Virus record (IMG/VR): IMGVR_UViG_2698536518_000010
DNA length: 20,335 bases
Direction: 5' to 3' (one strand)
Source: a virus
Taxonomy: Duplodnaviria; Heunggongvirae; Uroviricota; Caudoviricetes
Part shown: in pieces, positions 1 to 19,786 of the stretch
How positions within the stretch are numbered: the first letter of the stretch is position 1
How the letters are laid out: the number at the start of each line of letters is the position of its first letter
Position numbers and translations under genes: made by a program
Notes under the pieces: generated by a model
Databases searched by the model: none
What the model was told of the DNA's origin: nothing
The model's input: only the letters and a program-made list of their open reading frames with translations

Positions 1-1731
1 TTAGCCTGAGATATATTCATCCGCTGCGTTCTTGATTATTTTTGACCTAACATTTTTAATGTACGGTATTTTTTTCAGATCATCCCTCGAACAGTGAACG
101 ATATCACCCACTTTAGGATAGGTTTCTTTTATTCGGTCGCATATTGCGTTACTAATTGACAAGCAACTAACCGGATCATCAAGAAGTTGTCCTACAATTG
201 ACCTTGTTGGTACAGGTGTCCCACACTTAGGACAAAACTTCGCATCTCCAGGTAACTCAGCGGAACAAGTTTGACACTCATCAGCTGATTCTTTCAATTT
301 TTCTAAAAAACGCTCTAATTCAGAATCTGCTGCGCCAAATTCTTTATAATCAGCGAGAGATAATAGTGTTATTATCTCCCCGAACTTATTAGATACGAAT
401 GCTTTTTCAGTGAAAAGTAATGATAAATTAACCATGTAGCGCTGACCCGATTTTCGATTAGACATCTTCACGGACCCTTGCTTGGAAAGAACACCAGAAT
501 AACAAAGCAAATCTAGAGACAATCTAAGATTTGGAGAAATAACGGGAGGAAGAACAAAAAAAGCAGATTGGGTTTGAGTCTTTTTCTCTCTGTTATTTTT
601 CAATCTAAGCTCAGGGATAATACACTCCCTAAGAATATCAAGTCCAATGCGAACATGGTGAGAATACTTAGGTAATCGTTTTGAAAGCCCTAAATGATAA
701 GGTAATAATTCTTGATTGACATAATCCTGAGTGCAAGTTAAAAGATCTCTTTCAGTATAACCTTTCTCATATACTTTATTAAATAAATGGAGAAATGCTC
801 TAGGGTTTCCGGATGAAAGATGAATACATTGATCTAGCAAATCACCTTTAGCCAATATTCTCTTTTTTGCTGCTCCTTGTGTGACCCGTTTATCTAATAG
901 ATCACGATATAAACGTCGTGTTCGTTCCCGCCCAATATTTCCAGTTTCGTATCCTCCGAGGTTTATCATCATGGCATCTTGACCAACTTCAAAATTTTTA
1001 CCATACGATGTAATTGACGGATATACAGCCGCCTTAACTGCAATTTTACCGCCATGAAGCAATTTAAATATTTCGAAGAATATTTCCTGCTGTTCTGGTA
1101 TAAAGGTATGAGCAGCCTCATCAAATAAAAAAACAATTCTATTAAGTTGGTATTCTTGAATTATCTCCTTGATGATGTCATTTACATAACTTATATCATT
1201 AACCTTATCTAAAAAATCCTCTCCAATTTCATTCAACAATTTATCTGAAGAAGGATCTCTTGATAACCTTTGAAGCAGATGAATTTTAGATTGTAGAGCA
1301 TCTTTCATTCCAGTTATAGTTTTAATCCCAAAAATTCTTTGAAATGGATCACTGCTATTATTGTCACGAATGACATCTAAAAATATCAACTTTTCGTACA
1401 AAGCTTGTAGTAACTTAGCGCTTACCCATATCTGAAATGCATTTTTATTGTCAGCTTTAACCCCTTCCAGCAAAGTACTGGTTTTGAAATTAACATATAC
1501 CCCCACAATCTTTTTAACAGGAAAATCACTATCTAATTCAGCTTCTGCCGCTCTTAGAAGCATAGACTTTCCAATTCCTCTGGCACCCTGAATCAGATGA
1601 GAGCCCGCTATTTTTAGTTTTGCTACAACATCTTTTTCAAACTCACCAAGAACAGCCAGTTGTTTGACCTGTTTCAACTCAAGATCTTCGGTACGTGCTG
1701 CATGTAATAACTCAGTGTCTAACATAGACAT
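1..1731 (-). CDS. P-loop NTPase (AAA_16/STAND-like motifs) with C-terminal zinc ribbon and basic tail; downstream gene of a candidate defence cassette
   Basis: 576-aa ORF. Walker A GARGIGKS (codons at about 1564-1587), Walker B-like VFLFDEAAH, CxxC-x10-CxxC ribbon CQTCSAELPGDAKFCPKCG (about 220-276). TAA stop at 1-3. Start ATG overlaps the upstream stop (TAATG, 1729-1733). AT-rich codon usage. Family is by motif only. Confidence 0.75.
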   Translation of the reverse strand: MSMLDTELLHAARTEDLELKQVKQLAVLGEFEKDVVAKLKIAGSHLIQGARGIGKSMLLRAAEAELDSDFPVKKIVGVYVNFKTSTLLEGVKADNKNAFQIWVSAKLLQALYEKLIFLDVIRDNNSSDPFQRIFGIKTITGMKDALQSKIHLLQRLSRDPSSDKLLNEIGEDFLDKVNDISYVNDIIKEIIQEYQLNRIVFLFDEAAHTFIPEQQEIFFEIFKLLHGGKIAVKAAVYPSITSYGKNFEVGQDAMMINLGGYETGNIGRERTRRLYRDLLDKRVTQGAAKKRILAKGDLLDQCIHLSSGNPRAFLHLFNKVYEKGYTERDLLTCTQDYVNQELLPYHLGLSKRLPKYSHHVRIGLDILRECIIPELRLKNNREKKTQTQSAFFVLPPVISPNLRLSLDLLCYSGVLSKQGSVKMSNRKSGQRYMVNLSLLFTEKAFVSNKFGEIITLLSLADYKEFGAADSELERFLEKLKESADECQTCSAELPGDAKFCPKCGTPVPTRSIVGQLLDDPVSCLSISNAICDRIKETYPKVGDIVHCSRDDLKKIPYIKNVRSKIIKNAADEYISG

Positions 1732-2420
1732 TATAAAACTACCTCACTAGATTTAGGAAATGAAGATAGCACTTCTTTTCTTATCTTATGACGAACAATA
1801 TTGGAATTAATTATCATACCCAAAACAACCTCAGCCAGACCTATGAACCTCTCCCAATCTTCACTTTCAAAAGTGAACTTATTAGGCAAATCAGTTTCAA
1901 ATGAGGTTATTTTTCCATGAACGATATCACTTAATTGTCCATAAATTTTCTGTGCTCTTCTCATATCAATAACACATACTTTCCCTCCTATCTTCTCATT
2001 TTCTGTGAAGTAGTCTATATAGCCTTGATTTGTTATATGCTTCAACATATCACTGAAACTTAAGTCTTCATCATGATTTTTCCAAGAATATACAACATGA
2101 GGCATATCCCAAAGATAAATAGATGCGACACCTAGTTCCAAAACTCTCCTTAGAACAATATTAGCTGGTTTATCTATGGCACAGGCAGAAAGATATAAAG
2201 AAGATGACGTATCAGCAATAATCTCACTAAAAATTTTAATACAAACATCATGATGAACTGATGTTTTCTTTTTATTCAAAATTTCAGCAATCGTGTTAAG
2301 AGTGAAAATTGAGATAATTACTTTATCTAATTTTTTATCTTGTATGCCCTGCCATTCACGAAAGTTACTATTGAACTTATCGCTTAGCATATTAATTATC
2401 TCAGTAGGTGATTTGTTCAT
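1731..2420 (-). CDS. Hypothetical 229-aa protein, upstream partner of the NTPase (possible effector); no recognisable motif
   Basis: 229-aa ORF with stop overlapping the NTPase start by 1 nt (translational coupling). AT-rich. Preceded by AT-rich intergenic region 2421-2520 with AAGGGA upstream of the ATG. Confidence 0.65.
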   Translation of the reverse strand: MNKSPTEIINMLSDKFNSNFREWQGIQDKKLDKVIISIFTLNTIAEILNKKKTSVHHDVCIKIFSEIIADTSSSLYLSACAIDKPANIVLRRVLELGVASIYLWDMPHVVYSWKNHDEDLSFSDMLKHITNQGYIDYFTENEKIGGKVCVIDMRRAQKIYGQLSDIVHGKITSFETDLPNKFTFESEDWERFIGLAEVVLGMIINSNIVRHKIRKEVLSSFPKSSEVVL

Positions 2421-4141: not shown

Positions 4142-4305
4142 AGCCTCACCTCTTTAAGTGCCTTATCCATCAGTTGCCGGGCAATAACATGAATCGACGG
4201 TGCCACACCAAGCACAGATTTCTGACGCTTTTCGGCCTGGATACGTTACAGGGCTTCGATCTGCCCCCGGGAAAGTAAAACTGGCTTTACTCCGTGATTT
4301 TTCAT
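4138..4305 (-). pseudogene. Small frame (55 codons) interrupted by an in-frame TAA at codon 20 (plus-strand tta at 4246-4248)
   Basis: ATG at 4305-4303. Translation MKNHGVKPVLLSRGQIEAL-stop-RIQAEKRQKSVLGVAPSIHVIARQLMDKALKEVRL, then TGA overlapping the GTG of the 90-aa gene. Confidence 0.3.
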
Positions 4306-4544
4306 GATGATCCCTTCTGAATGACAATAATTGCAATAAATGAAACAAAAAGCATCAATAAACCAACCTTCGGCACTAAATGCTCTGATTTTTCTGCAAA
4401 GGTATGGTAGATGTTGCTGCATGCAAACATAAAGGAAATAGCAGAAGAAACAGCGGGGAGTGAAAAGGGGAAGTTTTTATAAATACACGATTGTCGCCTC
4501 ACTGCAGGTTAACAGCCACAAACCCCATGATAATAACTTGTTAA

Positions 4545-4868
4545 TTATTTCATCAGATTTTTCATTATTTGCGCGATTGAGTACACAAGCAAAAACTCGG
4601 CAGCCGCAAGAGTATAAAAAACATAGATTCGCTTAGCCCACCGACGATGAAAGAACTCCTCAGCATGACCGAATGTTCGAGATACAAGCCATGCACCTAC
4701 TGCACACAGAGCAGGTGCAATGAGCACAGTTATAAACCAGATTGTGATACCCATCCCATGCCTACTGATAATAGCCATTGGTATTGCAAAAATGAATGTT
4801 AGAGCAGCATTAGCTAATAGAATATCTTTTAAAGTATTTTCAATTAGTTTTTCTAGATTATCTTTCAT
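4545..4868 (-). CDS. Small hydrophobic membrane protein (107 aa, 2-3 predicted TM helices)
   Basis: ORF with hydrophobic stretches (LLANAALTFIFAIPMAII, ITIWFITVLIAPALCAVGAWLV). A G7 tract (4874-4880, minus strand) acts as Shine-Dalgarno 5 nt upstream of the ATG. Confidence 0.55.
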   Translation of the reverse strand: MKDNLEKLIENTLKDILLANAALTFIFAIPMAIISRHGMGITIWFITVLIAPALCAVGAWLVSRTFGHAEEFFHRRWAKRIYVFYTLAAAEFLLVYSIAQIMKNLMK

Positions 4869-4887
4869 CTAATCCCCCCCGTTGAAC

Positions 4888-4920
4888 ATTAATATATAAA
4901 AGCCCCTTACTAAGGGGCTT
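4888..4920 (-). terminator. Rho-independent terminator after the lipoprotein gene
   Basis: 8-bp stem AGCCCCTT/AAGGGGCT (4901-4908 and 4913-4920) with 4-nt loop, followed on the minus strand by a U/A-rich tract (TTATATATT). Confidence 0.5.
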
Positions 4921-4932
4921 TGCACGGATTGT

Positions 4933-6075
4933 TTAAAGGGAACTTTTTTTCGCCCCTTCAATTTCTGCCTGACAAATTTCGTCATTTGTAAATGAGTACT
5001 GCAGATAGACATATCCCTGAGTGGAATTGTTCGCTCTGGCCTCAATAGAGATAGTATCGATATTGTTTTTTAATGGTATTTCTTTTGTTCCCTTCCATGT
5101 GGCAGATAAGAAGCGTTCTTTTTTGTTTAGCCCCCTCATCCAGTCCTGAGGATCTTTCCAAATTGAACCAGCCAGCAAAAAGTCTGTAGTATCAGCCTTT
5201 CCATACAGAGAACTTAAAGAATTACTCAATTCTTCAAACTTGGATTTAAGAGCCAATCCATAGCTATCAGTATCAATATTTTTTCCTAAAGCCCGTATTT
5301 GACATAAACCAGCTTTCGGGGAGATCAGCAAACCATACATTTCAAAATCTGCGTTTTGCTTCGGTAATTTATCAGAAGTATACAGATTCACACTGTCTGG
5401 TAGTGGCTTGAGCTTAGCACCGATCATATCTTCGATGTTTTTCTGTGTAAGACCGGCTTCTAAGCCAAACGGACCATCCGCTGGCGGGAGTAAAGGAAGT
5501 TGCTCTTGGGAATTTTTGGCTGTTACTTCCGTTTCAGTACTGTTTTTTGCGTCATTAGCTTGTACTGATGCCAGCTTAACTTCAGCGAGGCCATACTTGG
5601 CTGTGAGGTACTTTTGCTGCAACATTGCCATGGTCTGCTCTTCAGTGGCAACAGTAGATAATTTTAGTACCTTTATCAGACCACCACTATACTGACGAGC
5701 ATCAGCTTTGGCTTCGTTGATTTTTGCATCTAAGCTGTCAATTTCAGTTTTAATTGAAGCCGCAAGCTCAGGATCAGGTTTTACTCCAGATACAACAACA
5801 TCAATTTTGGCACCTGATTCAATAGCATTAATACGCTGTTCCAAAAGCGCTTTATTAGTTCCTAATATTTCCAGTCTTGCTGTTGTCAGATTTTTTATCA
5901 ACCCACCAGAAAACTGCTGGTCAACTTCCTTAGCTGCTGATATTTCACCTTCCGTTTGCGACAGTTCAGCTTTAAGAGCCGCTACTTCCTGTTTCTGTTC
6001 TGGAGTTAACTCTTCTGGCCCACATCCGGTTAACATTACTATACCGACTAATGTTGCAATTAAAGTTTTATTCAT
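4933..6075 (-). CDS. Lipoprotein (380 aa) with internal repeat motif, function unknown
   Basis: N-terminal signal peptide with lipobox LTGC (MNKTLIATLVGIVMLTGC). Two copies of an xSGGLIKxL-containing segment. Coiled-coil-like composition. Confidence 0.8.
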   Translation of the reverse strand: MNKTLIATLVGIVMLTGCGPEELTPEQKQEVAALKAELSQTEGEISAAKEVDQQFSGGLIKNLTTARLEILGTNKALLEQRINAIESGAKIDVVVSGVKPDPELAASIKTEIDSLDAKINEAKADARQYSGGLIKVLKLSTVATEEQTMAMLQQKYLTAKYGLAEVKLASVQANDAKNSTETEVTAKNSQEQLPLLPPADGPFGLEAGLTQKNIEDMIGAKLKPLPDSVNLYTSDKLPKQNADFEMYGLLISPKAGLCQIRALGKNIDTDSYGLALKSKFEELSNSLSSLYGKADTTDFLLAGSIWKDPQDWMRGLNKKERFLSATWKGTKEIPLKNNIDTISIEARANNSTQGYVYLQYSFTNDEICQAEIEGAKKSSL

Positions 6076-6209
6076 ATCCCTATTCCAAATGAAAATATTC
6101 AGATTAATCTTATCAGGAACCCAGATGCAATTGAATATTCATCTGCTCAGCAACGTAGTAGATTTCCTCAGAAAGCATCAACAAAAAACCAAGAGAATCC
6201 CATCCTCTG

Positions 6210-6497
6210 TTACTGACTACAATTGTTCTTTTTTTGGTATTTCCTGAATGCCTCACCATTGGGCTGATGTAATCCCATCCCGGCATGTGCCCGGCTGATG
6301 GTTTCGCGCATCTCCCCGAAATTATCCTGCCTTGCTGGTGGGCATGCTGCCTTGTGGATACATTCCGCGCGACGTTTTGCCGCCTGTTCCCGTGCCTTGT
6401 CATCATTCGCCAGCATGATGACCTCAGCCCACCGCGCCGCCGCTCTCCGGTACAGACCACGCGCTTCCAGTGCTTCCGCTTTGCTGTCGTGAATCAT
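6210..6497 (-). CDS. PerC-family-like transcriptional regulator (95 aa)
   Basis: Motif KAEALEARGLYRRAAARWAEV resembles the conserved PerC/Pch core as I recall it. 4-nt overlap with the upstream ProQ-like gene. Confidence 0.5.
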   Translation of the reverse strand: MIHDSKAEALEARGLYRRAAARWAEVIMLANDDKAREQAAKRRAECIHKAACPPARQDNFGEMRETISRAHAGMGLHQPNGEAFRKYQKKNNCSQ

Positions 6498-7036
6498 GCG
6501 CCTATTGTCTCCTTTGCTGCCCGGCGCTGGCGTTTGCGCTTCTCATTCAGCGCCACCAGCCGCGTTTCTGCGTCCTGTTGTTCCTGTGGTGTCACCTCGC
6601 CGCACGGCTGGCCTTTCAGGTCGTAGCGTACCCCACCAGCCATTAAGGCGCGGTAATAGCGCGGACACTGCGCATAAGATGCCAGCGTCGCACGCAATGC
6701 CCCTGGCCCGAATGCCAGCCCCCTGACGGCGAGATCCTGCATCAGGTCGTCGAATATCCCCACCTTAAGCGGCTTCAGTGCTTCCCGGCTGAATAAGTCA
6801 GGCCACAACTCAGTGAGGCGGTTAACGCGCCTGCGGTTTTTGCGCTGGCGTTTGGTCATATGCCGCCACGGTGTCGCCCCTGTAGGCTTCTGCTGCGCTT
6901 TCTGGTTACCGGGCATCACTTTATGCGCCGATGTGGTTTTATCCTGCTCCTGTGCCGCCTGCGTCGTTTTCTGTGGCGTGCCGTAAATACCTTTTGGTTT
7001 TCTGTTAATGGTCAGCTTAGTCATGCTTTGCCCCAT
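6494..7036 (-). CDS. ProQ/FinO-domain RNA-binding protein
   Basis: Segment LTELWPDLFSREALKPLKVGIFDDLMQDL...YYRALMAGGVRYDLKGQPCGEVTPQEQQDAETRL aligns by eye with the E. coli ProQ N-terminal FinO-like domain (LAERFPHCF...PLKIGIFQDL...RVDLDGNPCGEL). Likely true start is ATG at 7024 (GGGG upstream). Confidence 0.8.
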   Translation of the reverse strand: MGQSMTKLTINRKPKGIYGTPQKTTQAAQEQDKTTSAHKVMPGNQKAQQKPTGATPWRHMTKRQRKNRRRVNRLTELWPDLFSREALKPLKVGIFDDLMQDLAVRGLAFGPGALRATLASYAQCPRYYRALMAGGVRYDLKGQPCGEVTPQEQQDAETRLVALNEKRKRQRRAAKETIGA

Positions 7037-7045
7037 CGTTACAAC

Positions 7046-7380
7046 TGTCTACCAACTGTCTACCGATATAATTGATTGATTTATTTAATGTTATTAACAC
7101 ATAACAAAAAAACAATCTGCAAACTGTCTACCAACGGTCTACCGCATTAATACATTGATAATTAATGATTTTTACTAAATGGTAGACAGTGTAGACAGTT
7201 AAAAGAGAAATTTAAAAAATACCCCCTTAACTATCTGTTTTTTATATACCCCCCGTGGTTTAGGAATATAGAAATAACTGTCTACCTCTCTACCACATTG
7301 AAAATATCTTTATAATTCAAAATATTAATTGGTAGATGGTTGGTAGAGGGTTAAGTGAATCTGTCTACCAACCGTCTACC
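7046..7380. repeat. Iteron-type origin-like region: at least 8 direct copies of (T/G/C)GTCTACC and 4 inverted copies (GGTAGA) separated by AT-rich spacers
   Basis: Direct octamers at 7046-7053, 7057-7064, 7125-7132, 7136-7143, 7279-7286, 7287-7294, 7362-7369, 7373-7380. Inverted copies at 7181-7188, 7190-7197, 7331-7336, 7342-7347. Lies immediately 3' of the primase/helicase gene. Confidence 0.75.
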
Positions 7381-7407
7381 TTTACGTTTCAGCTTATAAA
7401 TTTCGTA

Positions 7408-9213
7408 TTATGTTCTGTCGTTAATCCCTGTAGCTGCTGGCAACCAGCCATCAGCATCATCATCTAACAGAACATTTGTTATCACTCGCCCTTTATCCGG
7501 GCCTTTAGTGCATTTAGCCCGCTTATACTCCTTTCCGTATTCCGCCATAGCTCCTGGCATATCAGTACCAAAGCGTGTCAGTGATACTGGTTTTCCCAGG
7601 CCATGCGCTGACATATAGGCTAAATAAGCATGATACAGGTATCGCCTCGGGCTAAATGGCACTATTTCCGCATTGCCCACCATCATTCCTTCACATTTAA
7701 CCAACGACATCAGATAGCCGCAAAAGTCCACCAGTGAATCACCTTCGCGCTTTATCAACAGCGCTTCTTCTGATTTTTGCTGCTCATAAAGTAGTCTTTT
7801 AGCTTCGTCCTGGTCGGTAAATCGTGTTAGCAAATGGCGAATCACTACCGCCAGTTCGCCTTCTATCTTTTCCGCCAGCATGGGATCGCGTTCGTTCTCC
7901 GGTACGACCTCAGAGAAATTAAATATCACCCTACGACGCGAGATCCCCCCGCTTCGGTCACTGAATGACATGGCGTTATTGTTTACCGCAAGCACTACTG
8001 CCGGAATACGTGTGGAGTAGGGGGCTTTATGTTTCGGATCAATTGCCACCTTGTCGCCGCCAGTAATTGCCTTAATTCCTGCACCATCGCCAGCGTAGCG
8101 AGTCATATCCGGCATGATAATCAGCGAAAAGCCAACTACTAACGCGCGTTCCCTTGCGTCTTCCAGAGCCTTCATGCTTGCCGATACTGTGTTGGCCTTA
8201 CCCGCCAGCATGGTACAAATCTCCGCCATCACACTTTTACCGCTTCCGCCCGGCCCCGTTACCTCAAGGAATAACTGCCAGTCGTACCGGTTCGCCAGTA
8301 CCATGAATAATGCCGCCAGTACGCGATCCGCTTTACGAGCATTATCCGCCACCGAACGACGCAACCACTTCCAGAAATTCGGCGCATGTGTTGCCAGCGT
8401 TTCCCCCTCTTCTGGCGGGCTGAACGGTAATTCACTGGCATTTAACAACCAGTCATTTTTGTTGTGTTCCCGAAAATTTCCTGTCCTGATATCAAAAACA
8501 CCGTTACTGAACCCAATAAGATTTCTGTCCGCTCCCCCCATAACAGGTAGACTCAATTTCATTGTCTCTACGGCAAATTTAATGGCGTTTTGCGAATAAC
8601 TAATTTCGGCATCAATAAAAATCTTCGCCATAGACCGCTGGAGTTCCTTATCAGATACAGGCTCCCAAACAATTCCGTTGTAATGGTGAACTACATCAGA
8701 ATCATCATTTATCGCCAGTGCTCCTCCATAATGTTCAAGTAACACTTCCCCTCTCTGGCTGGCTCCCATCTGATTTAATGCAGGCTTGGGTAGACCACTA
8801 TTTTTTGTAGCTAATTTCATCACTGAAACTTCCCCGTGCTCAGCCTGTTCGCGGATCCGTTGCAGGTAGTCGCGCCAGTTCTCCGGTTCCTGGTCGGTGA
8901 TACCTTTGTATAATTTCGCCTCCTGTACGCCAGCCAGCGCCAGCTTTTCAGCGATAGTATTGATCTGGATTGGCTCTATCTCCCCCGCGATATAGACACG
9001 CGCAAAACGGCGTTTCTCGTCAATAATGCGGATATTCGCCAGGTCTGCCAGTTGCTTTGGCCCCAGGTAAACAGGAGGCACGTTATCGCCGTGTTTTCGT
9101 CCTTCACTTTCAATCCAGTGTTGAGCATGGGCGTAAGCATCCGTCCCGGCAAAAATGATTACCTCAGTGAATTTATCCTTCGGCTGATATTTTAGACTCG
9201 GTGCGTTTTTCAC
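7408..9213 (-). CDS. Replicative primase/helicase, P4 alpha-like (SF3 helicase P-loop GPGGSGKS)
   Basis: 601-aa ORF. Walker A VTGPGGSGKSV and Walker B-like LIIMPDM. Start overlaps upstream gene (ATGA). Followed by the iteron region. Confidence 0.85.
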   Translation of the reverse strand: MKNAPSLKYQPKDKFTEVIIFAGTDAYAHAQHWIESEGRKHGDNVPPVYLGPKQLADLANIRIIDEKRRFARVYIAGEIEPIQINTIAEKLALAGVQEAKLYKGITDQEPENWRDYLQRIREQAEHGEVSVMKLATKNSGLPKPALNQMGASQRGEVLLEHYGGALAINDDSDVVHHYNGIVWEPVSDKELQRSMAKIFIDAEISYSQNAIKFAVETMKLSLPVMGGADRNLIGFSNGVFDIRTGNFREHNKNDWLLNASELPFSPPEEGETLATHAPNFWKWLRRSVADNARKADRVLAALFMVLANRYDWQLFLEVTGPGGSGKSVMAEICTMLAGKANTVSASMKALEDARERALVVGFSLIIMPDMTRYAGDGAGIKAITGGDKVAIDPKHKAPYSTRIPAVVLAVNNNAMSFSDRSGGISRRRVIFNFSEVVPENERDPMLAEKIEGELAVVIRHLLTRFTDQDEAKRLLYEQQKSEEALLIKREGDSLVDFCGYLMSLVKCEGMMVGNAEIVPFSPRRYLYHAYLAYMSAHGLGKPVSLTRFGTDMPGAMAEYGKEYKRAKCTKGPDKGRVITNVLLDDDADGWLPAATGINDRT

Positions 9214-9500
9214 TTCTTACCTCCCGCAACCAACATTGCCCGGATTTTTTTAATATTCGTGGCTGCACGTCTCGCCACTGCCTGTTGTTTGTTTTCCACC
9301 AGAATAAAATCACGATCAAACTGACGGCGCGGCATTACGCAGTCATATTCGTAAGCCTCACGGCGGTAGGTGATATTGCCTGGCGTAACGTGACGAATAA
9401 CCACCCGTCCCCCGCGTCTGGTGTCCCGGGAAATATCACCGGGGCGGATTTCAGGCCGAGAGAGGCCGCTGGCAGTAAAGCCAGAATTTTTCTTTTTCAT
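9210..9500 (-). CDS. Hypothetical basic protein (96 aa) in the replication operon
   Basis: ORF whose stop overlaps the primase start. No recognisable domain. Confidence 0.5.
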   Translation of the reverse strand: MKKKNSGFTASGLSRPEIRPGDISRDTRRGGRVVIRHVTPGNITYRREAYEYDCVMPRRQFDRDFILVENKQQAVARRAATNIKKIRAMLVAGGKK

Positions 9501-9504
9501 GGTT

Positions 9505-9705
9505 TTATTTTCCTGTCAGCAGTTCCGGTTTTATTTCCGCACGAATACAAAGTTCAGAAAAAAATTCAGGAGAACCAACAATCTCATTACTTTTCAGTCG
9601 GCATTGTGATTTCACTTTCCCTTTATCCAGGTAAACCAGTACGCGTCCGGTGAAATCATCTGGCACATTAAGCACTACGGGTACATGCGCTTCATGATTA
9701 TGCAT
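9505..9705 (-). CDS. Hypothetical protein (66 aa), short paralogue of the 9924-10289 gene
   Basis: GGAGGA Shine-Dalgarno. N-terminus MHNH...DDFTGRVLV parallels MHNL...EKFTGQLLV of the larger gene. Confidence 0.5.
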   Translation of the reverse strand: MHNHEAHVPVVLNVPDDFTGRVLVYLDKGKVKSQCRLKSNEIVGSPEFFSELCIRAEIKPELLTGK

Positions 9706-9931
9706 GGCTTACATCCTCCGTGAATTTTCTTCTGTAACGCGTCTCTGCCACATATTCCGCATAGTCCGACGCAATACTAAGAATCATTTCACCCTCTGAC
9801 TTGTAGCCACTGGTATTGATAAGAAAATATGCAGCTTTCATCATGTCAGCAACGCTCAACAATGCGCCCGCTGCATCTTCCGGTGCGCCATCAAATTCCC
9901 GTTTCAGGGAATTAAAACGATCATCACGCAT
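9698..9931 (-). CDS. Hypothetical protein (77 aa)
   Basis: ORF overlapping neighbours by 8 nt at both ends (operon-style packing). Confidence 0.45.
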   Translation of the reverse strand: MRDDRFNSLKREFDGAPEDAAGALLSVADMMKAAYFLINTSGYKSEGEMILSIASDYAEYVAETRYRRKFTEDVSHA

Positions 9932-10289: not shown

Positions 10290-10506
10290 GGTGCACCTCC
10301 TGCACATCAGCCATGATAATTTTTCCGGCCTTATCCAGTGCCTGATCGGCTTTTAGCTGCACAAATGCTAAATAATGGGAGATGCATTCTGATTCTCTGG
10401 CTGCGTGTTTATGCGCCACACCAGCGATAGCAGAAATCTCAATAAGTGAATCCATCAGCGTTTTGATAGCGTCTACCGCTGCATCAGGCCATGTTGCATT
10501 ACACAT
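10282..10506 (-). CDS. Hypothetical protein (74 aa)
   Basis: ORF with ATGTGTAA start/stop overlap with the upstream 67-aa gene. Confidence 0.4.
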   Translation of the reverse strand: MCNATWPDAAVDAIKTLMDSLIEISAIAGVAHKHAARESECISHYLAFVQLKADQALDKAGKIIMADVQEVHHA

Positions 10507-10702
10507 GTTCCACCTCCTGGCGAATACGGGCTGCGAATACCATCACGCAGCCATCAGGAGATTGCTGGCGTGCTTCCTGTTCGCTGGTGGCCTCGATGTG
10601 AATTACGCGCGGTTGTGCCGTGCTCAGGGCGATAAAACGCCAGATGTATTTATTCAGGTTGTGCGAGTCCCGCCCTTGCGGGTGTGTGGTATGATTTCTC
10701 AT
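10499..10702 (-). CDS. Hypothetical protein (67 aa), first gene of the leftward operon
   Basis: C-terminal part of the 435-codon ORF-track frame. ATG at 10702 preceded by GAGGT Shine-Dalgarno. Lies just downstream of the operator cluster. Confidence 0.45.
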   Translation of the reverse strand: MRNHTTHPQGRDSHNLNKYIWRFIALSTAQPRVIHIEATSEQEARQQSPDGCVMVFAARIRQEVEHV

Positions 10703-10798
10703 AGCTACCTCGATACTCTTGCTATCGTTGGTGGTTAGACGCCCTGCATGTGTGCCACCACTGCGGGGCGTTGTCGTTTCTGCACCTTGCATCAACAA

Positions 10799-10853
10799 GG
10801 TGTTGAACACCAATTTAAGCCTAGGTGTTAAACACGTCAAGTGTTGAACACTT
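10799..10853. promoter_or_regulatory. Three copies of an 11-bp perfect palindrome GTGTT(G/A)AACAC (10800-10810, 10825-10835, 10841-10851); candidate operator cluster in a divergent promoter region
   Basis: Read directly. Third copy overlaps a TTGAAC -35-like hexamer with CATACT 17 bp downstream. Sits between the leftward operon and the rightward small RHH gene. Confidence 0.6.
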
Positions 10854-10901
10854 ATTTTTTTTCCTGCATACTGCATTTGTTTTTTGTAAGGGGTACACAA
10901 C

Positions 10902-11081
10902 ATGGCGACAAAAGCAGTAAACGCAAAATCACAAACAGTTGCGGCAAGGGTTCCGCATGAAGTTATGAACAATGTTGAGGCGGTAAAAATGCCTGGTGAA
11001 AGTACAGGGCAGTTTGTAACAGCAGCATTAAAGCGAGAAGTTGAATACCGCCAGCGCCGCAAGGCCAAAGAACAGGAGTAA
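10902..11081 (+). CDS. Ribbon-helix-helix (Arc/CopG-like) small DNA-binding protein, 59 aa (below ORF-track cutoff)
   Basis: ATG at 10902 with AAGGGG upstream. Translation MATKAVNAKSQTVAARVPHEVMNNVEAVKMPGESTGQFVTAALKREVEYRQRRKAKEQE fits a beta-strand/helix/helix pattern. Confidence 0.45.
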   Translation: MATKAVNAKSQTVAARVPHEVMNNVEAVKMPGESTGQFVTAALKREVEYRQRRKAKEQE

Positions 11082-11798
11082 CCATCACCAGCGCCGTGGT
11101 GTGAGGAACTACGGTGCATCGTTTTACAGGGCTGCGCCATGACCAACAAAGAATCAACCAATACACCATCACCGGCACGGAAAAGACAGCGCAGAAAGAT
11201 AGCGTACGAGCATGAGTCAAACAGATTCGCGCCCTGTGCGTTTATCCTTGAGAAATTCCTTAAAGAGTACAGGCGCACAAAAATGGGGTCGCATACCTGG
11301 AAAACATCGCGGCATGGCAATGTTAAAGAGCAGGAATAGCCCACCAGCAAGCCAGCATATTCACCATAATGACCCTCAGTTAAACATAGAGTCATTGGTG
11401 CAAAGCTGACACATTGCCCACCAGCCGCAAATCTGGCATTGTTGGCGATGCGTTCAAGTATGTAGCTTTCCCACTGGCGGCCCTCTGCGGTCGCCTTTGT
11501 TTTATCCAGAACGAAATCAGACATCAGATTGATCAGCACCTGGCGACCTGACAAAATCGCATCAGTCGCGCCACCAGCAAAATTTTTTGCTTTCCGGACA
11601 GTGTGACCAACGACATTTTGCAGCAAAATATTCTGCATTTCTGGCGTGCTGTAGTAACGGTGATCAGCGCCTTCACTCTGTGCGACCACAACGCTATAAT
11701 CTGCCTCGTAGACAGTAAGCAATATGGCGCAGTAGGCTATTCGTTCACAAAGGCGCTCCGGCAACGGGGCGCTTTCTCTTTTTGTAACGGTCAGAGCG

Positions 11799-12599
11799 TT
11801 ACACATGGCTGTTTTCCTCCATGCGACGGGCTAACCAACGCTGCGAAAGACGAATTAATTCAGCCTTCCGCTGGTGGTAGTCCTGGCCTAACTCAATCAG
11901 CGTGATATTGCTCTGCTCAAGGTAAGAAAGGTGCTCAAGCTGCAACGTGCTCATGTGGTCGCGTGGTTCGCCTGTAATGCCGTTCGCCAGTGCCCACTGT
12001 TTTGCAGTCATGCCACCCAGTACGATACGCGCCAGCATGTTCGCTTCCGTGGTGTAGTGGTGCTGGAGTGTGTTTTTACCCAGTTCAGCCCGGTACGCCT
12101 CCAGCGCGGCACACATTGGCTTAAAGTAGCTGGCAACTGTGATACGGGCTTTCAGTTCCCGGCGTAACGCTGCGGAACGAACAGGCGCAACCTTGTGTAG
12201 CTCCTCCTCGCATTTGATAAAGTACTGGCGAACGGCGCGGCCCTGTTCGGTACGTTCGACCATCGCCAGTTCTTTCGCCATGTTCACTGTGATGATGTAC
12301 TCAAGAGCGGTTTGCTGGCGAGATTTTGCGCTCACCGGATCGGGTCGGCTCAAATATTCAACAACCTCATAATCCACGCCTTCCGTGAACCCGTATTCTT
12401 CAATGCGCCCCTTGATCCACGAACGGAAAACGCGCCCTACACCTAACGCCTTATGTAACGCTCTGGCGCTAACAATAGTGGTTTCACTCCCGCCAATAAC
12501 GCCGGAAATAATCGGGATAATTTCGCCGAAATTTTGCAGATTCTGGTTTTCAGGCCGAACGAAGCCCCGCCCCTGTACGGGCGTTTTTGGAAATTTCAT
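11799..12599 (-). CDS. Phage antirepressor-like protein (ANT/KilAC-type motif)
   Basis: 266-aa ORF. Segment ITVNMAKELAMVERTEQGRAVRQYFI resembles the conserved antirepressor core as I recall it. Confidence 0.6.
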   Translation of the reverse strand: MKFPKTPVQGRGFVRPENQNLQNFGEIIPIISGVIGGSETTIVSARALHKALGVGRVFRSWIKGRIEEYGFTEGVDYEVVEYLSRPDPVSAKSRQQTALEYIITVNMAKELAMVERTEQGRAVRQYFIKCEEELHKVAPVRSAALRRELKARITVASYFKPMCAALEAYRAELGKNTLQHHYTTEANMLARIVLGGMTAKQWALANGITGEPRDHMSTLQLEHLSYLEQSNITLIELGQDYHQRKAELIRLSQRWLARRMEENSHV

Positions 12600-12676: not shown

Positions 12677-12874
12677 TCAGGTAGCTGTTCCGCGTGATTC
12701 CGCAATACGCTGATTAATCCACTCGTCAATTTCACTCTCAACGAAAGCAATAGCTCGCGAGCCAATTTTAACTGATGCAGGAAATTTACCTTGCCCCATA
12801 AGGCGATAAATCCATGCCTTGCTATATCCAGTTCTACGCTGAACTTCTGTTAAACGAATAAGCGTATTTGACAT
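12677..12874 (-). CDS. alpA: AlpA/Vis-family transcriptional regulator / excisionase-like protein
   Basis: 65-aa ORF MSNTLIRLTEVQRRTGYSKAWIYRLMGQGKFPASVKIGSRAIAFVESEIDEWI, typical AlpA-type HTH. Located two genes from the integrase. Confidence 0.85.
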   Translation of the reverse strand: MSNTLIRLTEVQRRTGYSKAWIYRLMGQGKFPASVKIGSRAIAFVESEIDEWINQRIAESRGTAT

Positions 12875-14027: not shown

Positions 14028-15242
14028 TCATCCACATTTTCCGAACTTGCCATGCACCACGTTACCGCCATGTTCGAGCGAATCCATATAGTCGGCGTAC
14101 CACTGGAGCATCTCGCGCCGCCCGTCCAGATATTGCGCATGATTGTACGTGCCACGAATTGAGTTCTTATCAACGTGTGCAAGCTGCGTTTCTATCCACG
14201 CGGTGTTATAGCCCTGCTCATGTAAAATCGTGCTCATGGTGTGCCGGAATCCATGACCAGTAACCTTTCCGTTATAGCCGATGCGTTTAAATACTTGGTT
14301 TATGCTAGCCTCGCTCATTGTTTTCCTTGGATCATTACGGCCGGGAAACATAAGCGGATAATTACCAGTTAATTCTTTAATCTGCCCAATAAGAGAAAGA
14401 GCCTGCTTAGACAAAGGCACCACATGAGGGCGACGCATTTTCATCCGTGAAGCAGGTATCTCCCAGATAGCCTTGTTGAGATCGATTTCATCCCATAATG
14501 CACCGCGCAGTTCGCCAGTTCGCAAACCAGTGATAATCAGTAGACGAGCCGCCATAACAACCAATGCACTTCCTGAGTAACTGGACAATGCCTTGAAAAA
14601 ATCAGGCAATTCTTTGGCTGTGAGGAAAGGATAATGATTAGATTCATGGCCTTGCATCGCGCTAGTAAGATCTGGGGCAGGGTTATACTCTGCGCGACCA
14701 GTGACTATTGCATAGCGGAAAACTTCCCCGCACCGCTGCCTCACTTTTTTGGCTTTTTCTGTAGCACCGCGCCCCTCGATGCGTCGCAGCACATTCAGAA
14801 GTTCAAGTGGTTTGATTTCGGCGATTGGTTTTTTGCCAATGTAAGGGAACACATCTTTGTTGAAGGCTTCGAGGATATCTGAAGCATAACCAGCAGACCA
14901 TTTTTTTAATTTGCTGCTGTGCCACTCAAGGGCAATATCTTTGAAGGTATTGTTTAACTGCGTTTCCCGGGCAATCTTTTCCTCTCGTTTCGCTTCCATC
15001 GGATCGATACCCCCAGCGATACCCCTTTTAGCTTCTTCACGTTTTGCACGAGCATCAGCCAAGGTAACTTCAGGATACACACCTAGTGCTAACAGCTTCT
15101 CTTTACCAGCTACACGATATTTAAAGCGCCAGTATTTTCCTCCACTAGGTTTTACCAGGAGATACAGACCACCACCATCAGCCAGCTTGTAAGCCTTCTC
15201 TTTTGGCTTGGCAGTGTCTATTTGACGGGCATTGAGTTTCAC
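14028..15242 (-). CDS. int: Tyrosine recombinase, P4-type integrase
   Basis: 404-aa ORF with GTG start preceded by GGAGGT. Catalytic signature residues (RTGELR, HGFRHT, SIRGTYNHAQY). Adjacent to the tRNA 3' fragment. Confidence 0.9.
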   Translation of the reverse strand: MKLNARQIDTAKPKEKAYKLADGGGLYLLVKPSGGKYWRFKYRVAGKEKLLALGVYPEVTLADARAKREEAKRGIAGGIDPMEAKREEKIARETQLNNTFKDIALEWHSSKLKKWSAGYASDILEAFNKDVFPYIGKKPIAEIKPLELLNVLRRIEGRGATEKAKKVRQRCGEVFRYAIVTGRAEYNPAPDLTSAMQGHESNHYPFLTAKELPDFFKALSSYSGSALVVMAARLLIITGLRTGELRGALWDEIDLNKAIWEIPASRMKMRRPHVVPLSKQALSLIGQIKELTGNYPLMFPGRNDPRKTMSEASINQVFKRIGYNGKVTGHGFRHTMSTILHEQGYNTAWIETQLAHVDKNSIRGTYNHAQYLDGRREMLQWYADYMDSLEHGGNVVHGKFGKCG

Positions 15243-16030: not shown

Positions 16031-16106
16031 CCCTTAAGTTCCTAGCCGCTTATCTATAACTATGGAAAAATGTTAACCCTGACTGTATGCTAACAAAGGG
16101 ATGTAT

Positions 16107-17315
16107 ATGTCGGTTTTTCATAACTGGCTGCTTGATATCGCAAGCGGGAATTACTTTATCTACATCAAACGCCTTTCTGCAAACGACACTGGCGCAACAG
16201 GTGGCCATCAGGTCGGACTTTATATCCCCTCAAATATCGTTGAAAAGCTTTTTCCATCTATCAATCATACTCGCGAACTGAACCCTTCAGTCTTCCTTAC
16301 TGCGCATGTATCATCCCATGATTGCCCTGATACCCAAGCACGCGCAATTTATTACAACAACCGTTATTTTGGTAAGACCCGAAACGAAAAAAGAATTACG
16401 CGCTGGGGGAGAGGAAGTCCATTACAGAACCCTGAAAATACAGGAGCTCTCACAATTCTTGCTTTCAGGTTAAACGAACAGAACACTGACTGTTCCGAGG
16501 TAGATATATGGGTCTGCGTCAATCCCGATGAAGAGGATATCATCGAGTCTGCTATTGGCGAAATCATACCTGGAACCCTAATTTCCGGCCCTGCCGGACA
16601 AATTTTGGGCGGATTATCTCTTCAGCAAACTCCAGTAAATCATAAATATGTTATTCCTGAAGACTGGAAGAAGCGTTTTCCTTCTGGAAACGAAATTATT
16701 CAATATGCTGCTGGCCATTATGCTAAAAACTCCAAGGATCCAGATGAGCAACTGATTGACCGTCGGCGTGTCGAGTATGATATTTTTCTACTCGTCGAGG
16801 AATTACATGTTCTTGATATTATTAAGAAAGGATTCGATTCTGTAGATGAGTTTATTGCATTAGCCAACTCTGTCAGTAATCGACGTAAATCAAGGGCAGG
16901 CAAATCACTTGAACTTCACCTAGAGAAGCTTTTTATCGAGCACGGACTACGGCATTTCTCCACTCAGGCAGTTACTGAAGGTAATAAAAAACCAGATTTC
17001 CTGTTTCCTTCAGCAGAGGCATATCATAACGTTGAATTTCCTGTAGAAAACTTACGTATGCTGGCAGTAAAGACCACCTGCAAAGATCGCTGGCGTCAGA
17101 TACTGAATGAAGCAGATAAAATCCATCAGGTACATTTATTTACACTGCAAGAAGGTGTTTCTTCAGCACAATACCGAGAAATGAAAGATGCGGGTGTCAG
17201 ACTCGTTGTACCATCAACTTTACATAAAAAATACCCAGAAGCAGTTAGAGAAGAATTAATAACGCTCGGAGCATTCATTACTGAGCTGATAGAGCTTTAC
17301 GCTGAACTATCATAG
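16107..17315 (+). CDS. Type II restriction endonuclease, EcoRII family (expected CCWGG specificity)
   Basis: Protein closely resembles EcoRII as I recall it across its length (MSVFHNWLLDI..., RLSANDTGATGGHQVGLYIP, ...KTTCKDRWRQILNEADKIHQVHLFTLQEG). AAAGGG Shine-Dalgarno supports the ATG at 16107 over the ORF-track 16101. Confidence 0.85.
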   Translation: MSVFHNWLLDIASGNYFIYIKRLSANDTGATGGHQVGLYIPSNIVEKLFPSINHTRELNPSVFLTAHVSSHDCPDTQARAIYYNNRYFGKTRNEKRITRWGRGSPLQNPENTGALTILAFRLNEQNTDCSEVDIWVCVNPDEEDIIESAIGEIIPGTLISGPAGQILGGLSLQQTPVNHKYVIPEDWKKRFPSGNEIIQYAAGHYAKNSKDPDEQLIDRRRVEYDIFLLVEELHVLDIIKKGFDSVDEFIALANSVSNRRKSRAGKSLELHLEKLFIEHGLRHFSTQAVTEGNKKPDFLFPSAEAYHNVEFPVENLRMLAVKTTCKDRWRQILNEADKIHQVHLFTLQEGVSSAQYREMKDAGVRLVVPSTLHKKYPEAVREELITLGAFITELIELYAELS

Positions 17316-17320
17316 GCTGA

Positions 17321-17343
17321 CTCCCGGCTTAAAAGGCCGGGAG
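17321..17343. terminator. Hairpin between the convergent R and M genes (CTCCCGGC-TTAAAAG-GCCGGGAG)
   Basis: Perfect 8-bp stem read directly. No flanking U-tract, so terminator function is inferred only from position. Confidence 0.4.
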
Positions 17344-17349
17344 GTGTTC

Positions 17350-19743: not shown

Positions 19744-19786
19744 AACCGCAGCACGATCTTCTTGCATACGACGTGCTACGGTTTCA
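19744..19786. repeat. About 40-bp imperfect-hairpin element, copy B, abutting the invertase stop codon
   Basis: See copy A. Homology ends at the invertase stop codon (tca at 19784-19786). Confidence 0.6.

What the first reader, a model, noticed from the sequence alone, without database searches (positions are those of the whole stretch)
7046..7380. Iteron-rich origin-like region immediately downstream of the primase/helicase
Seen: at least eight direct and four inverted copies of a TGTCTACC-type octamer interspersed with AT-rich DNA. Established: P4 replication uses octamer repeats (ori1 and crr) bound by the alpha primase/helicase. Inference: this is the island origin (crr-like), and the octamer differs from what I recall for P4 (TGTTCACC), implying distinct specificity.
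Basis: partly seen in the sequence, partly recalled or inferred. Interest (0 to 1): 0.5.

Follow-up and report, generated by a model that had tools for sequence, protein, structure and literature searches.

The report
Replication origin of a phage satellite
The AT-rich gap after the island's helicase gene holds twelve copies of an 11-base repeat and is very probably the replication origin of a phage-inducible chromosomal island, a kind of origin already shown to work in the sister island EcCICFT073, so it is an ordinary member of a known class.

Summary
The 371-bp, 69% A+T gap at 7037-7407 carries 12 copies of AAC(T/C)GTCTACC, eight on the + strand and four on the - strand, arranged as six pairs. 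GTCTACC occurs 11 times in the window against 0.9 expected.

The gap lies directly 3' of a 601-aa protein with D5_N, SF3 helicase and a C-terminal P4-alpha-type origin-binding winged helix (PDB 1KA8, E=6e-19).

The island has the gene order int, alpA, icd-like, DUF4222, pri-rep, repeats, then ProQ and PerC. EcCICFT073, a Gram-negative PICI, has the same order. Its pri-rep/ori segment was shown to replicate a plasmid, and its ori carries the same TCTACC core.

Across 87 related loci the repeat type follows the wing of the C-terminal domain. Loci with KRKTKHG-IRSN have TGTTCACC, the P4 type. Loci with the PDKGR insertion have GTCTAC.

Only one cluster exists per island, so this is a single PICI-type origin and not a P4 ori+crr pair. 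The "primase" has no Toprim or zinc-ribbon match.

Verdict: a new member of a known kind, with a variant repeat layout. Interest is low to moderate. Function is inferred and was not tested.

The parts
7037..7407 (.). Whole intergenic origin region: 371 bp, 69% A+T, 12 iterons, no ORF of note, no terminator-like site, no Rfam match above threshold
7043..7064 (+). Iteron pair 1: AACTGTCTACC AACTGTCTACC, head-to-tail, 11-bp period. It is the pair farthest from the initiator gene and next to the ProQ start codon.
7065..7121 (.). AT-rich spacer (57 bp, 81% A+T) between two same-direction pairs. It contains an IHF-core-like match at 7069-7081 (-).
7122..7143 (+). Iteron pair 2: AACTGTCTACC AACGGTCTACC. 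It is one arm of convergent module B.
7144..7180 (.). AT-rich spacer of module B (37 bp, 84% A+T; inner cores 44 bp apart). It is a candidate DNA-unwinding element and contains an IHF-core-like match at 7148-7160 (-).
7181..7200 (-). Iteron pair 3, on the - strand: CACTGTCTACC and AACTGTCTACA, 9 bp apart. It is the other arm of module B.
7201..7275 (.). Iteron-free centre (75 bp) with two C-runs, ATACCCCC, at 7219-7226 and 7246-7253. It stands where the canonical arrays of relatives have a >>> 31 <<< module.
7276..7294 (+). Iteron pair 4: AACTGTCTACC and ACCTCTCTACC, 8 bp apart and overlapping. It is one arm of convergent module A. The first copy has decayed in 4 of 7 related strains.
7295..7330 (.). 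AT-rich spacer of module A (36 bp, 89% A+T; inner cores 43 bp apart). It is the most AT-rich block and a candidate DNA-unwinding element.
7331..7352 (-). Iteron pair 5, on the - strand: AACCATCTACC and AACCCTCTACC, 11-bp period. It is the other arm of module A.
7359..7380 (+). Iteron pair 6: ATCTGTCTACC AACCGTCTACC. It is the pair nearest the initiator stop codon. With pair 5 it forms a 17-nt inverted repeat that is 94% complementary (I6).
7408..9213 (-). Initiator gene (Pri-Rep type, 601 aa): D5_N (residues 156-285), SF3 helicase P-loop DUF5906 (319-427), Pox_D5 / P4 origin-binding domain (about 490-592). It has no Toprim or zinc-ribbon match.
7438..7743 (-). Region coding for the winged-helix origin-binding domain (residues 491-592). 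It matches PDB 1KA8 by sequence (E=6e-19) and by predicted fold (Foldseek E=5e-9, TM 0.75 on the target).
7465..7521 (-). Region coding for the predicted beta-hairpin wing RAKCTKGPDKGRVITNVLL. The 5-residue insertion PDKGR is at 7486-7500. Nucleotide homology to TGTTCACC-type relatives ends just upstream of this, near 7524.

Best explanation
The region is the vegetative replication origin of a Gram-negative phage-inducible chromosomal island (PICI) of the EcCICFT073 type.

Proposed mechanism:
1. After induction and excision, the 601-aa initiator encoded just upstream (7408-9213, minus strand) binds the 11-bp iterons AAC(T/C)GTCTACC through its C-terminal P4-alpha-type winged-helix domain.
2. 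Iteron pairs one helical turn apart face each other across AT-rich spacers of 36-37 bp, with inner cores 43-44 bp apart. There are two such modules, at 7122-7200 and 7276-7352. Further pairs flank them.
3. The bound protein assembles into SF3-helicase rings that melt an AT-rich spacer and unwind outward.
4. The protein has no recognisable primase domain, so priming is probably left to the host.
5. Iteron specificity appears to be set mainly by the beta-hairpin wing, encoded in the last 40 or so codons that abut the origin. Wing and iterons can therefore be exchanged together as one cassette.

Shown here: the repeats, their non-random excess and their layout; the homology of the domain; the shared gene order and shared iteron core with a validated origin; the covariation of wing and iteron.

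Inferred: binding, melting site, helicase loading, host priming, and the role of the wing.
For: - Excess and clustering: 11 GTCTACC against 0.91 expected, and a single cluster in the window.
- Position: immediately 3' of a gene with D5_N, SF3 helicase and Pox_D5. Its residues 491-592 match the P4 origin-binding domain 1KA8 at E=6e-19. The AlphaFold model (pLDDT 78) has 1KA8 as its only significant PDB match.
[quoted passage not shown] It shows that EcCICFT073 pri-rep-ori supports plasmid maintenance and that deleting either the ori or pri abolishes it.
- EcCICFT073 (L008) has the same gene order. Its 288-bp ori holds 11 sites with the same TCTACC core.
- Covariation: across 87 loci, all 5 with the GPDKG wing insertion have at least 4 GTCTAC downstream. 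These are the window, E. ruysiae, Kluyvera georgiana, Enterobacter hormaechei and Lelliottia. Only 1 of the 82 without the insertion does, and that one is CFT073 (Fisher p=1.6e-7, not corrected for phylogeny). 72 of the 87 loci, P4 among them, carry TGTTCACC/ATTCAC-type repeats (at least 4 within 400 bp), and their wings are of the KRKTK-G-IRSN type. Other wing variants carry other repeats: TCTCCACC, CTGTCCG, GTATAC, GTTCAT.
- Persistence: across genera the spacers are unalignable, yet 11-13 iterons persist.
- Shared modules: the convergent module with 42-44 bp between cores and an AT-rich spacer, and the 21-22 bp divergent junction, are shared with all relatives. P4 crr shares the 42-bp module.
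- Constraint within E. coli and E. ruysiae: the 5-mer cores vary less than the rest of the gap, 5 of 60 columns against 75 of 311 (p=0.006).
- One cluster per island in L001 and L008, while the same scan finds both ori and crr in P4.
Against: - There is no experimental evidence for this locus.
- With the 7-mer definition of the sites, variability within E. coli does not differ from the spacers (16 of 84 against 64 of 287, p=0.65). The 5-mer result was a narrower definition chosen afterwards.
- One iteron (7276-7286) has decayed in 4 of 7 strains.
- The layout (<11<21>11>43<8<90>9>44<11<68<11<) departs from the canonical layout (>10>42<22>11>8>31<12<10<22>43<8<) found in EcCICFT073 and most relatives. 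It lacks the central >>> <<< module, so function cannot simply be transferred.
- EcCICFT073's domain recognises the same core with a very different wing and helix sequence, so the wing insertion is not a general requirement for this specificity.
- The five insertion-bearing loci may represent a single evolutionary event.
- The initiator has no primase-domain match.
- IS3 interrupts or abuts the region in some strains.
Confidence: 0.85

Rival explanations
1. A P4-crr-like auxiliary element. The array only enhances replication in cis, and initiation occurs at a separate ori elsewhere in the island, as in P4, where ori and crr lie about 4.5 kb apart.
For: The position is exactly syntenic with P4 crr, directly downstream of the alpha homologue. 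The 42-44 bp convergent module also occurs twice in P4 crr. The window is cut at its left end, so the island may not be complete in the window.
Against: The window has no second cluster of the repeat. The fully covered island of strain SCU-316 (L001, 100% identical over window 6400-9300) has none, and neither does EcCICFT073. The same scan recovers both clusters in P4. In EcCICFT073 the pri-rep gene plus the adjacent region alone suffices for plasmid maintenance (PMC6092414).
Confidence: 0.05
2. Primarily a transcriptional control region. The repeats are operators in front of the ProQ/FinO-PerC genes, bound by the initiator or another regulator to gate read-through or a local promoter, with no origin function.
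For: The array lies directly upstream of the ProQ/FinO start (7036). No terminator-like site separates it from the upstream gene. Winged-helix proteins often act as repressors. Initiator-bound iterons commonly autoregulate in plasmids (general knowledge).
Against: Promoter-like matches are at chance level, 3 found against 2.1 expected. The downstream gene differs among relatives (ProQ, SSB, hypothetical proteins), while the array always follows the initiator gene. The repeat type follows the initiator's own C-terminal domain. In EcCICFT073 the equivalent region is required for replication. A secondary regulatory role is not excluded.
Confidence: 0.05
3. A decayed or rearranged, no longer functional origin. 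It would be kept only as a relic, or would act only in copy control or incompatibility by titrating initiator from co-resident satellites.
For: The layout departs from the canonical one and lacks the central module. One iteron is decaying. IS3 insertions occur in some strains. The 7-mer sites are not measurably more conserved than the spacers.
Against: The same layout is kept at 90-100% identity in 105 of 5426 E. coli genomes and in E. ruysiae, next to an intact 601-aa initiator gene. Eleven of the 12 sites keep the TCTAC core in at least six of the seven aligned strains (nine in all seven), and the cores vary less than the spacers. Two complete convergent modules with the family-typical 43-44 bp spacing are present.
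Confidence: 0.05
4. A packaging (cos/pac), partition or recombination site that merely happens to be repetitive.
For: PICIs carry helper-type packaging signals somewhere in their genomes (PMC6092414). Repeats are typical of centromere-like sites and of integrase arm sites.
Against: The integrase and the island end lie about 7 kb away. No partition genes were seen among the ORFs scanned. The covariation is with the helicase-initiator's DNA-binding domain, not with int or a terminase. The homologous P4 repeats are annotated as ori/crr repeats.
Confidence: 0.02

Closest known systems
Replication origin of the E. coli PICI EcCICFT073 (Fillol-Salom et al. 2018, ISME J, PMC6092414)
   Same: It lies immediately 3' of a Pri-Rep gene with the same domain set (D5_N, DUF5906, Pox_D5, no Toprim). 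The island gene order is the same: int, alpA, icd-like, DUF4222, pri-rep, ori, then accessory genes including PerC. The TCTACC iteron core is the same, with 11-12 copies in both orientations. Both have convergent iteron sets across AT-rich spacers and a single cluster per island.
   Different: The array is longer (338 bp against about 225 bp between the outer cores). The layout differs: six pairs, no central >>> <<< module, and a 75-bp iteron-free centre with C-runs. The spacers are not alignable by blastn. The origin-binding domains are strongly diverged. The window protein is much closer to P4 alpha and to the TGTTCACC-type PICI proteins, and it carries a 5-residue wing insertion that CFT073 lacks. 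Activity is shown for CFT073, not for this locus.
Satellite phage P4 crr and ori (type 1 repeats TGTTCACC bound by the alpha protein)
   Same: crr lies directly downstream of the alpha gene, as here. Both use octamer-core repeats in both orientations. The C-terminal origin-binding domain is homologous (43% identity to 1KA8). The convergent module has a 42-44 bp core spacing.
   Different: The repeat is TGTCTACC, not TGTTCACC, so the central dinucleotide is CT rather than TC. No 120-bp direct duplication was found. There is no second, distant cluster. The initiator lacks alpha's zinc ribbon and Toprim primase domains. The island lacks sid, delta and psu.
PICI and cf-PICI origins with TGTTCACC iterons in E. 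coli, Klebsiella, Pectobacterium, Xenorhabdus and others (loci L003-L006, L010-L020 and others)
   Same: The initiators are 72-84% identical to the window protein up to residue about 564. The array sits at the same position and has a similar copy number and the same module spacings.
   Different: The iteron core differs (TTCAC against TCTAC). The wing sequence differs and lacks the PDKGR insertion. These loci have the canonical layout. Nucleotide homology ends at the wing-coding segment.
SaPI origins of Gram-positive PICIs (recalled from Ubeda et al. 2007 and 2012, not read here; PMC6092414, cites this earlier work and gives the ori position)
   Same: The ori lies immediately 3' of the rep gene. 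Iteron sets flank an AT-rich region. Initiator and origin are matched in specificity.
   Different: The host lineage and the iteron sequences differ. No sequence comparison was made here.
Origins of SF3-helicase viruses (SV40 large T antigen, papillomavirus E1; general knowledge)
   Same: An SF3 helicase has its own sequence-specific origin-binding domain. Short binding sites in inverted orientation lie next to AT-rich DNA. This suggests head-to-head ring assembly.
   Different: The DNA-binding fold is unrelated (winged helix here). There are many more sites. This is an analogy only and was not tested.

Membership tests
Gram-negative PICI replication origin (EcCICFT073 type) | Located immediately 3' of the pri-rep (initiator) gene | tested here: met
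   The array begins 28 bp after the stop codon at 7408-7410. The definition is from PMC6092414.
Gram-negative PICI replication origin (EcCICFT073 type) | [quoted passage not shown] | tested here: met
   There are two convergent modules with 36-37 bp spacers of 84-89% A+T.
Gram-negative PICI replication origin (EcCICFT073 type) | Island context: integrase, AlpA and pri-rep transcribed in one direction, with no full set of phage structural or lysis genes | tested here: met
   int 14028-15242, AlpA 12677-12874, DUF4222 9210-9500, pri-rep 7408-9213, ProQ and PerC are all on the minus strand. The order is the same as in L008. The window is cut at the left, so the far end of the island was not seen.
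Gram-negative PICI replication origin (EcCICFT073 type) | Initiator-dependent autonomous replication of the pri-rep-ori segment | not testable with these tools
   Shown only for EcCICFT073 (PMC6092414).
Gram-negative PICI replication origin (EcCICFT073 type) | Canonical iteron layout >>..<..>>>..<<<..>..<< | tested here: not met
   The window and L009 have <<..>>..<<..(90)..>>..<<..<<. This layout is an empirical regularity found here, not a published criterion.
P4 crr (cis replication region) | Directly downstream of the alpha-type gene | tested here: met
   P4 crr is at 4291-4590 and alpha at 4636-6969. The window array is at 7043-7380 and the gene at 7408-9213.
P4 crr (cis replication region) | Type 1 repeats TGTTCACC | tested here: not met
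   The 400 bp downstream of the window's gene holds no GTTCAC and 9 GTCTAC.
P4 crr (cis replication region) | Two 120-bp direct repeats | tested here: not met
   The longest direct family is 38 nt. The two modules are related as inverted copies that are 70% complementary (I1).
P4 crr (cis replication region) | Works with a separate ori that carries the same repeats several kb away | tested here: not met
   The window, L001 and L008 each have one cluster. P4 has two under the same scan.
P4 alpha-type initiator (primase, helicase and origin-binding domain in one protein) | C-terminal winged-helix origin-binding domain | tested here: met
   1KA8 matches at E=6e-19 by sequence. The predicted fold matches at E=5e-9.
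P4 alpha-type initiator (primase, helicase and origin-binding domain in one protein) | SF3 helicase core with D5_N | tested here: met
   Pfam D5_N at 1e-12 and DUF5906 at 3.4e-10. Invariant GPGGSGKS is present.
P4 alpha-type initiator (primase, helicase and origin-binding domain in one protein) | N-terminal zinc ribbon plus Toprim primase domain | tested here: not met
   P4 alpha hits Zn_Ribbon_Prim (1.9e-18) and Toprim_3 (1.2e-12). The window protein and its first 150 residues hit neither, even at E<=0.1. The alignment shows these segments deleted.
Classical iteron-plasmid origin (RepA/pi/TrfA type) | Tandem direct 17-22 bp iterons with DnaA boxes, and a Rep of the WH1-WH2 family | tested here: not met
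   The sites are 11-mers in both orientations. There is no DnaA box, with the best candidate at 2 mismatches, and no GATC. The initiator is an SF3 helicase.

The most novel reading that the evidence does not exclude
The last 40 or so codons of the initiator (wing hairpin plus tail) and the adjoining iteron array form one exchangeable specificity cassette. Across enterobacterial PICIs, cf-PICIs and P4-like satellites this cassette has diversified into a small set of orthogonal TGT-NN-ACC-like recognition pairs (TC, CT, AT and others). That would let several satellites replicate in one cell without cross-talk. The window would carry a distinct CT-type allele with a five-residue wing insertion and a rearranged origin layout that lacks the central module, possibly with altered initiation control.
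Probability: 0.45. Interest if true: 0.4.

Novelty: new member of a known kind. Interest (0 to 1): 0.25.

Why it matters
The practical value is in annotation. The 371-bp gap can be labelled as the island's ori, and the neighbouring "DNA primase family protein" as its iteron-binding helicase-initiator.

The comparative result is of modest wider use. Iteron type is predictable from the wing of the P4-type origin-binding domain, and homology between alleles breaks exactly at the wing-coding segment. This gives a simple way to sort satellite replicons into likely compatibility or specificity groups. It also offers natural pairs (TGTTCACC against TGTCTACC) for studying winged-helix recognition or for building orthogonal replicons.

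It does not open a new question. The class of element, its position and its mode of action are already described for PICIs, SaPIs and P4.

Tried and rejected
- Phage records: megablast of 6400-9300 found nothing.
- Literature: a full-text search for TGTCTACC together with 'iteron' found no paper. A search for TGTTCACC alone returned only irrelevant primer hits. One search failed on a term that was too short.
- Published iteron sequences: Fig. 2a of PMC6092414 is not held, and the supplements contain none. I therefore could not tell whether this exact allele was drawn there. None of CFT073, ED1a, 042, RM13514 or IHE3034 appears among the records listed from the 105 genomes that carry this ori, but not all 105 were listed.
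- Promoter and terminator scan: promoter-like sites are at chance level and there is no terminator.
- Rfam: only two sub-threshold chance matches, so there is no evidence for a ProQ/FinO-associated sRNA here.
- Small ORFs in the gap: nothing credible.
- DnaA boxes, GATC, oriC 13-mers and Fis-like sites: none found. There are two IHF-core matches in AT-rich DNA, which I consider weak.
- Footprinting within E. coli using the 7-mer sites: not significant.
- PADLOC on the accessory ORFs: no hits.
- tRNA scan: none in the window, so the attachment site was not defined.

Full report
**The observation**

The stretch 7043-7380 contains twelve sites with an invariant TCTAC core. Eight are on the + strand and four on the - strand.

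Aligning the twelve sites shows that the real unit is an 11-mer, AAC(T/C)GTCTACC. A, A and C at positions -5, -4 and -3 are present in 11, 10 and 12 of the 12 sites.

The sites come as six pairs with core spacings of 11, 11, 9, 8, 11 and 11 bp. GTCTACC occurs 11 times in the window against 0.91 expected from shuffles, and eight of those lie here. With one mismatch allowed, this is the only cluster in 20 kb.

**Surroundings**

The gap lies between two minus-strand genes. Upstream in the direction of transcription is 7408-9213, a 601-aa protein with Pfam D5_N, DUF5906 (SF3 helicase P-loop) and Pox_D5. Downstream is a ProQ/FinO-family gene (6494-7036), followed by PerC (6210-6497).

Further upstream on the same strand are DUF4222 (9210-9500), several small ORFs, an AntA-family protein, AlpA (12677-12874) and a tyrosine integrase (14028-15242).

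The segment 6400-9300 is 100% identical to E. coli SCU-316, where PGAP annotates the same genes next to tRNA-Thr.

This gene order is also that of EcCICFT073, the reference Gram-negative PICI: int, alpA, icd-like, small ORFs, DUF4222, 'DNA primase family protein', a 288-bp gap, then accessory genes including PerC.

**What is known about that position**

Fillol-Salom et al. 2018 (PMC6092414) make three relevant statements:
- In Gram-negative PICIs the origin lies immediately 3' of the replication initiator gene.
- A plasmid carrying EcCICFT073 pri-rep plus this region is maintained at the restrictive temperature, whereas deletion of the ori or of pri abolishes maintenance.

Reading the EcCICFT073 gap (L008 11997-12284) shows 11 sites with the same TCTACC core, as TGTCTACC or TATCTACC, in both orientations.

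In P4 (NC_001609) the GenBank annotation places crr (4291-4590) directly downstream of alpha (4636-6969). A separate ori lies at 9086-9809, and both carry 'ori type 1 repeats'. The sequence shows these to be TGTTCACC.

**The initiator**

Residues 491-592 match the crystal structure of the P4 origin-binding domain (1KA8) at E=6e-19.

An AlphaFold model of residues 480-601, built on 37 homologues (mean pLDDT 78), has 1KA8 as its only significant PDB match, with Foldseek E=5e-9. The model places two helices at residues 522-536 and 545-557, followed by a beta-hairpin at residues 565-583, RAKCTKGPDKGRVITNVLL. This is a winged-helix layout.

P4 alpha hits Zn_Ribbon_Prim and Toprim_3. The window protein and EcCICFT073 Pri-Rep hit neither, and the alignment shows those segments missing. 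The 'primase' label is therefore not supported by domain evidence. I infer that priming is left to the host, but this was not tested.

**Covariation of protein and repeat**

Megablast and blastn show that about 100 of 5426 E. coli genomes carry this gap, whereas more than 900 carry a related initiator at 80-90% nucleotide identity.

In those relatives the nucleotide homology stops at query base 117, which is window position about 7524. An alignment shows the break just before the wing-coding segment. The window-type sequences have a 15-nt insertion there.

The gaps downstream of four such relatives hold 8-9 copies of TGTTCACC, the P4 repeat, rather than TGTCTACC.

I then scanned one genome per species (80 loci) and analysed 87 loci in all:
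- All five loci with the GPDKG wing insertion have 8-9 GTCTAC within 400 bp downstream. These are the window, E. ruysiae, Kluyvera georgiana, Enterobacter hormaechei and Lelliottia wanjuensis.
- Only one of the 82 loci without the insertion has at least four, and that is EcCICFT073. Fisher p=1.6e-7, not corrected for shared ancestry.
- 72 loci have TGTTCACC/ATTCAC-type repeats, and their wings are of the KRKTK-G-IRSN type.
- Single loci with other wings have other repeats: Rahnella TCTCCACC, Serratia CTGTCCG, Pseudocitrobacter GTATAC, Escherichia sp. ESNIH1 GTTCAT.

Columns that separate the GTCTAC group from the GTTCAC group cluster in the wing and the tail. The predicted recognition helix is almost unchanged.

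Between genera the spacers cannot be aligned, yet 11-13 iterons persist. Together these results make the repeats the binding sites of the adjacent protein's C-terminal domain. That binding is an inference from covariation and homology, not a measurement.

**Architecture**

In the sense of the initiator gene, most relatives share the layout >10>42<22>11>8>31<12<10<22>43<8<, whatever their iteron type. This includes EcCICFT073.

The window and E. ruysiae instead have <11<21>11>43<8<90>9>44<11<68<11<.

Common to all are convergent iteron sets whose inner cores are 42-44 bp apart across an AT-rich spacer. There are two such modules per array, and P4 crr also has two. The 21-22 bp divergent junction is also shared by the PICI-type arrays; P4 crr has a 15-bp one.

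The window lacks the central >>> 31 <<< module. In its place is a 75-bp iteron-free segment with two C-runs. The window's array is thus a layout variant.

Spacings of about 11, 21-22, 31-32 and 43-44 bp are close to whole helical turns, so the sites would lie roughly on one face of the DNA. That last point is an inference.

**One cluster or two**

A scan for windows holding at least 3 cores finds a single cluster in the window, in the complete SCU-316 island with its flanks (L001), and in EcCICFT073. The same scan finds both crr and ori in P4.

The region is therefore better described as a single PICI-type ori than as a crr that assists a distant ori.

**Conservation within the species**

In an alignment of seven E. 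coli and E. ruysiae versions (90-100% identity), the 7-mer sites are not less variable than the spacers (16 of 84 against 64 of 287 columns, p=0.65).

The 5-mer cores are less variable (5 of 60 against 75 of 311, p=0.006). I chose that narrower definition afterwards, so it counts as weak support. One iteron (7276-7286) has decayed in four strains.

**Rival explanations**

- A pure operator or promoter role is unlikely. Promoter-like matches are at chance level and no terminator is present. The downstream gene varies among relatives while the array always follows the initiator gene.
- Rfam and ORF scans of the gap found nothing.
- No DnaA box or GATC is present, which fits a self-contained initiator.
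- A relic origin cannot be excluded without experiment. However, the intact initiator gene, the two complete modules and the spread of this allele argue against it.

**Verdict**

It describes a member of an already characterised class, the replication origin of an EcCICFT073-type PICI, and it has the same iteron core as the validated example.

What is particular to this locus is the layout of the array and the wing-insertion allele of a P4-type origin-binding domain. What this analysis adds is the family-wide link between wing sequence and iteron type. Function at this locus remains inferred.

Noticed in passing
window 7408-9213 (-), especially residues 1-155 (8749-9213): The protein annotated 'DNA primase family protein' has no Toprim or zinc-ribbon match, although P4 alpha has both. 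Its first 150 residues hit no Pfam family, only PHROG 2850 of unknown function. It may be a helicase-initiator without primase activity.
   Followed up: partly
window about 7465-7524, compared with L003, L006, L013 and L018: Nucleotide homology to TGTTCACC-type relatives ends just before the wing-coding segment. Wing, tail and iterons therefore look like one recombination cassette.
   Followed up: partly
L082 (Pseudocitrobacter faecalis) and L083 (Escherichia sp. ESNIH1), 400 bp downstream of the match: The two C-terminal tails are almost identical (KERKNRGMVTNVEL and KERKTRGVVTNVEL), yet the dominant repeats differ (GTATAC x7 and GTTCAT x8). This could be a minimal specificity switch.
   Followed up: no
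L085, L086 (Pantoea) and L088 (Mixta), downstream of the match: These alpha-like genes show no repeat cluster within 400 bp downstream, so their origin may lie elsewhere.
   Followed up: no
window 7219-7226 and 7246-7253: There are two C-runs (ATACCCCC) in the iteron-free centre of the array. The second, with its flank CCCCCGTGGTTTAG, is conserved in all seven strains aligned. Its function is unknown.
   Followed up: no
L094 (E. coli FDAARGOS_1300) and hit H13 (strain J2): An IS3-family element sits inside or next to this origin in some strains. In L094 the match starts at query base 124, about window 7153. This would truncate the array.
   Followed up: no
window 1-1731 (-) and 1731-2420 (-): A 576-aa ORF cut by the window edge has an ORC/CDC6-like AAA+ region and a C-terminal zinc ribbon. 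It is followed by a 229-aa ORF with no family. Neither hits PADLOC. They may be accessory or defence cargo of the island.
   Followed up: partly
window 16101-18825 and 19784-20317: An EcoRII-type restriction enzyme (16101-17315, +), a C-5 cytosine methylase (17350-18825, -) and a resolvase (19784-20317, -) lie beyond the integrase end. ARAGORN finds no tRNA gene in the window, although the identical island segment in SCU-316 abuts tRNA-Thr.
   Followed up: no
window 10499-11806 (-): A 435-aa open frame with no family hit spans a stretch where RefSeq annotates only a 67-aa Icd-like protein and two small opposite-strand genes (YlcI/YnfO and a hypothetical protein). It is probably not a real long gene.
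   Followed up: no
window 7069-7081 (-) and 7148-7160 (-): There are two matches to the IHF core consensus WATCAANNNNTTR inside AT-rich spacers of the array. They may be chance matches in AT-rich DNA.
   Followed up: no
L003 (E. coli KSC64), L005 (GN05476), L008 (CFT073): Relatives with the same replication module carry capsid genes (ClpP-like prohead protease/major capsid fusion, major capsid, head decoration). The initiator-ori module is thus shared between PICI and capsid-forming PICI-like islands.
   Followed up: no
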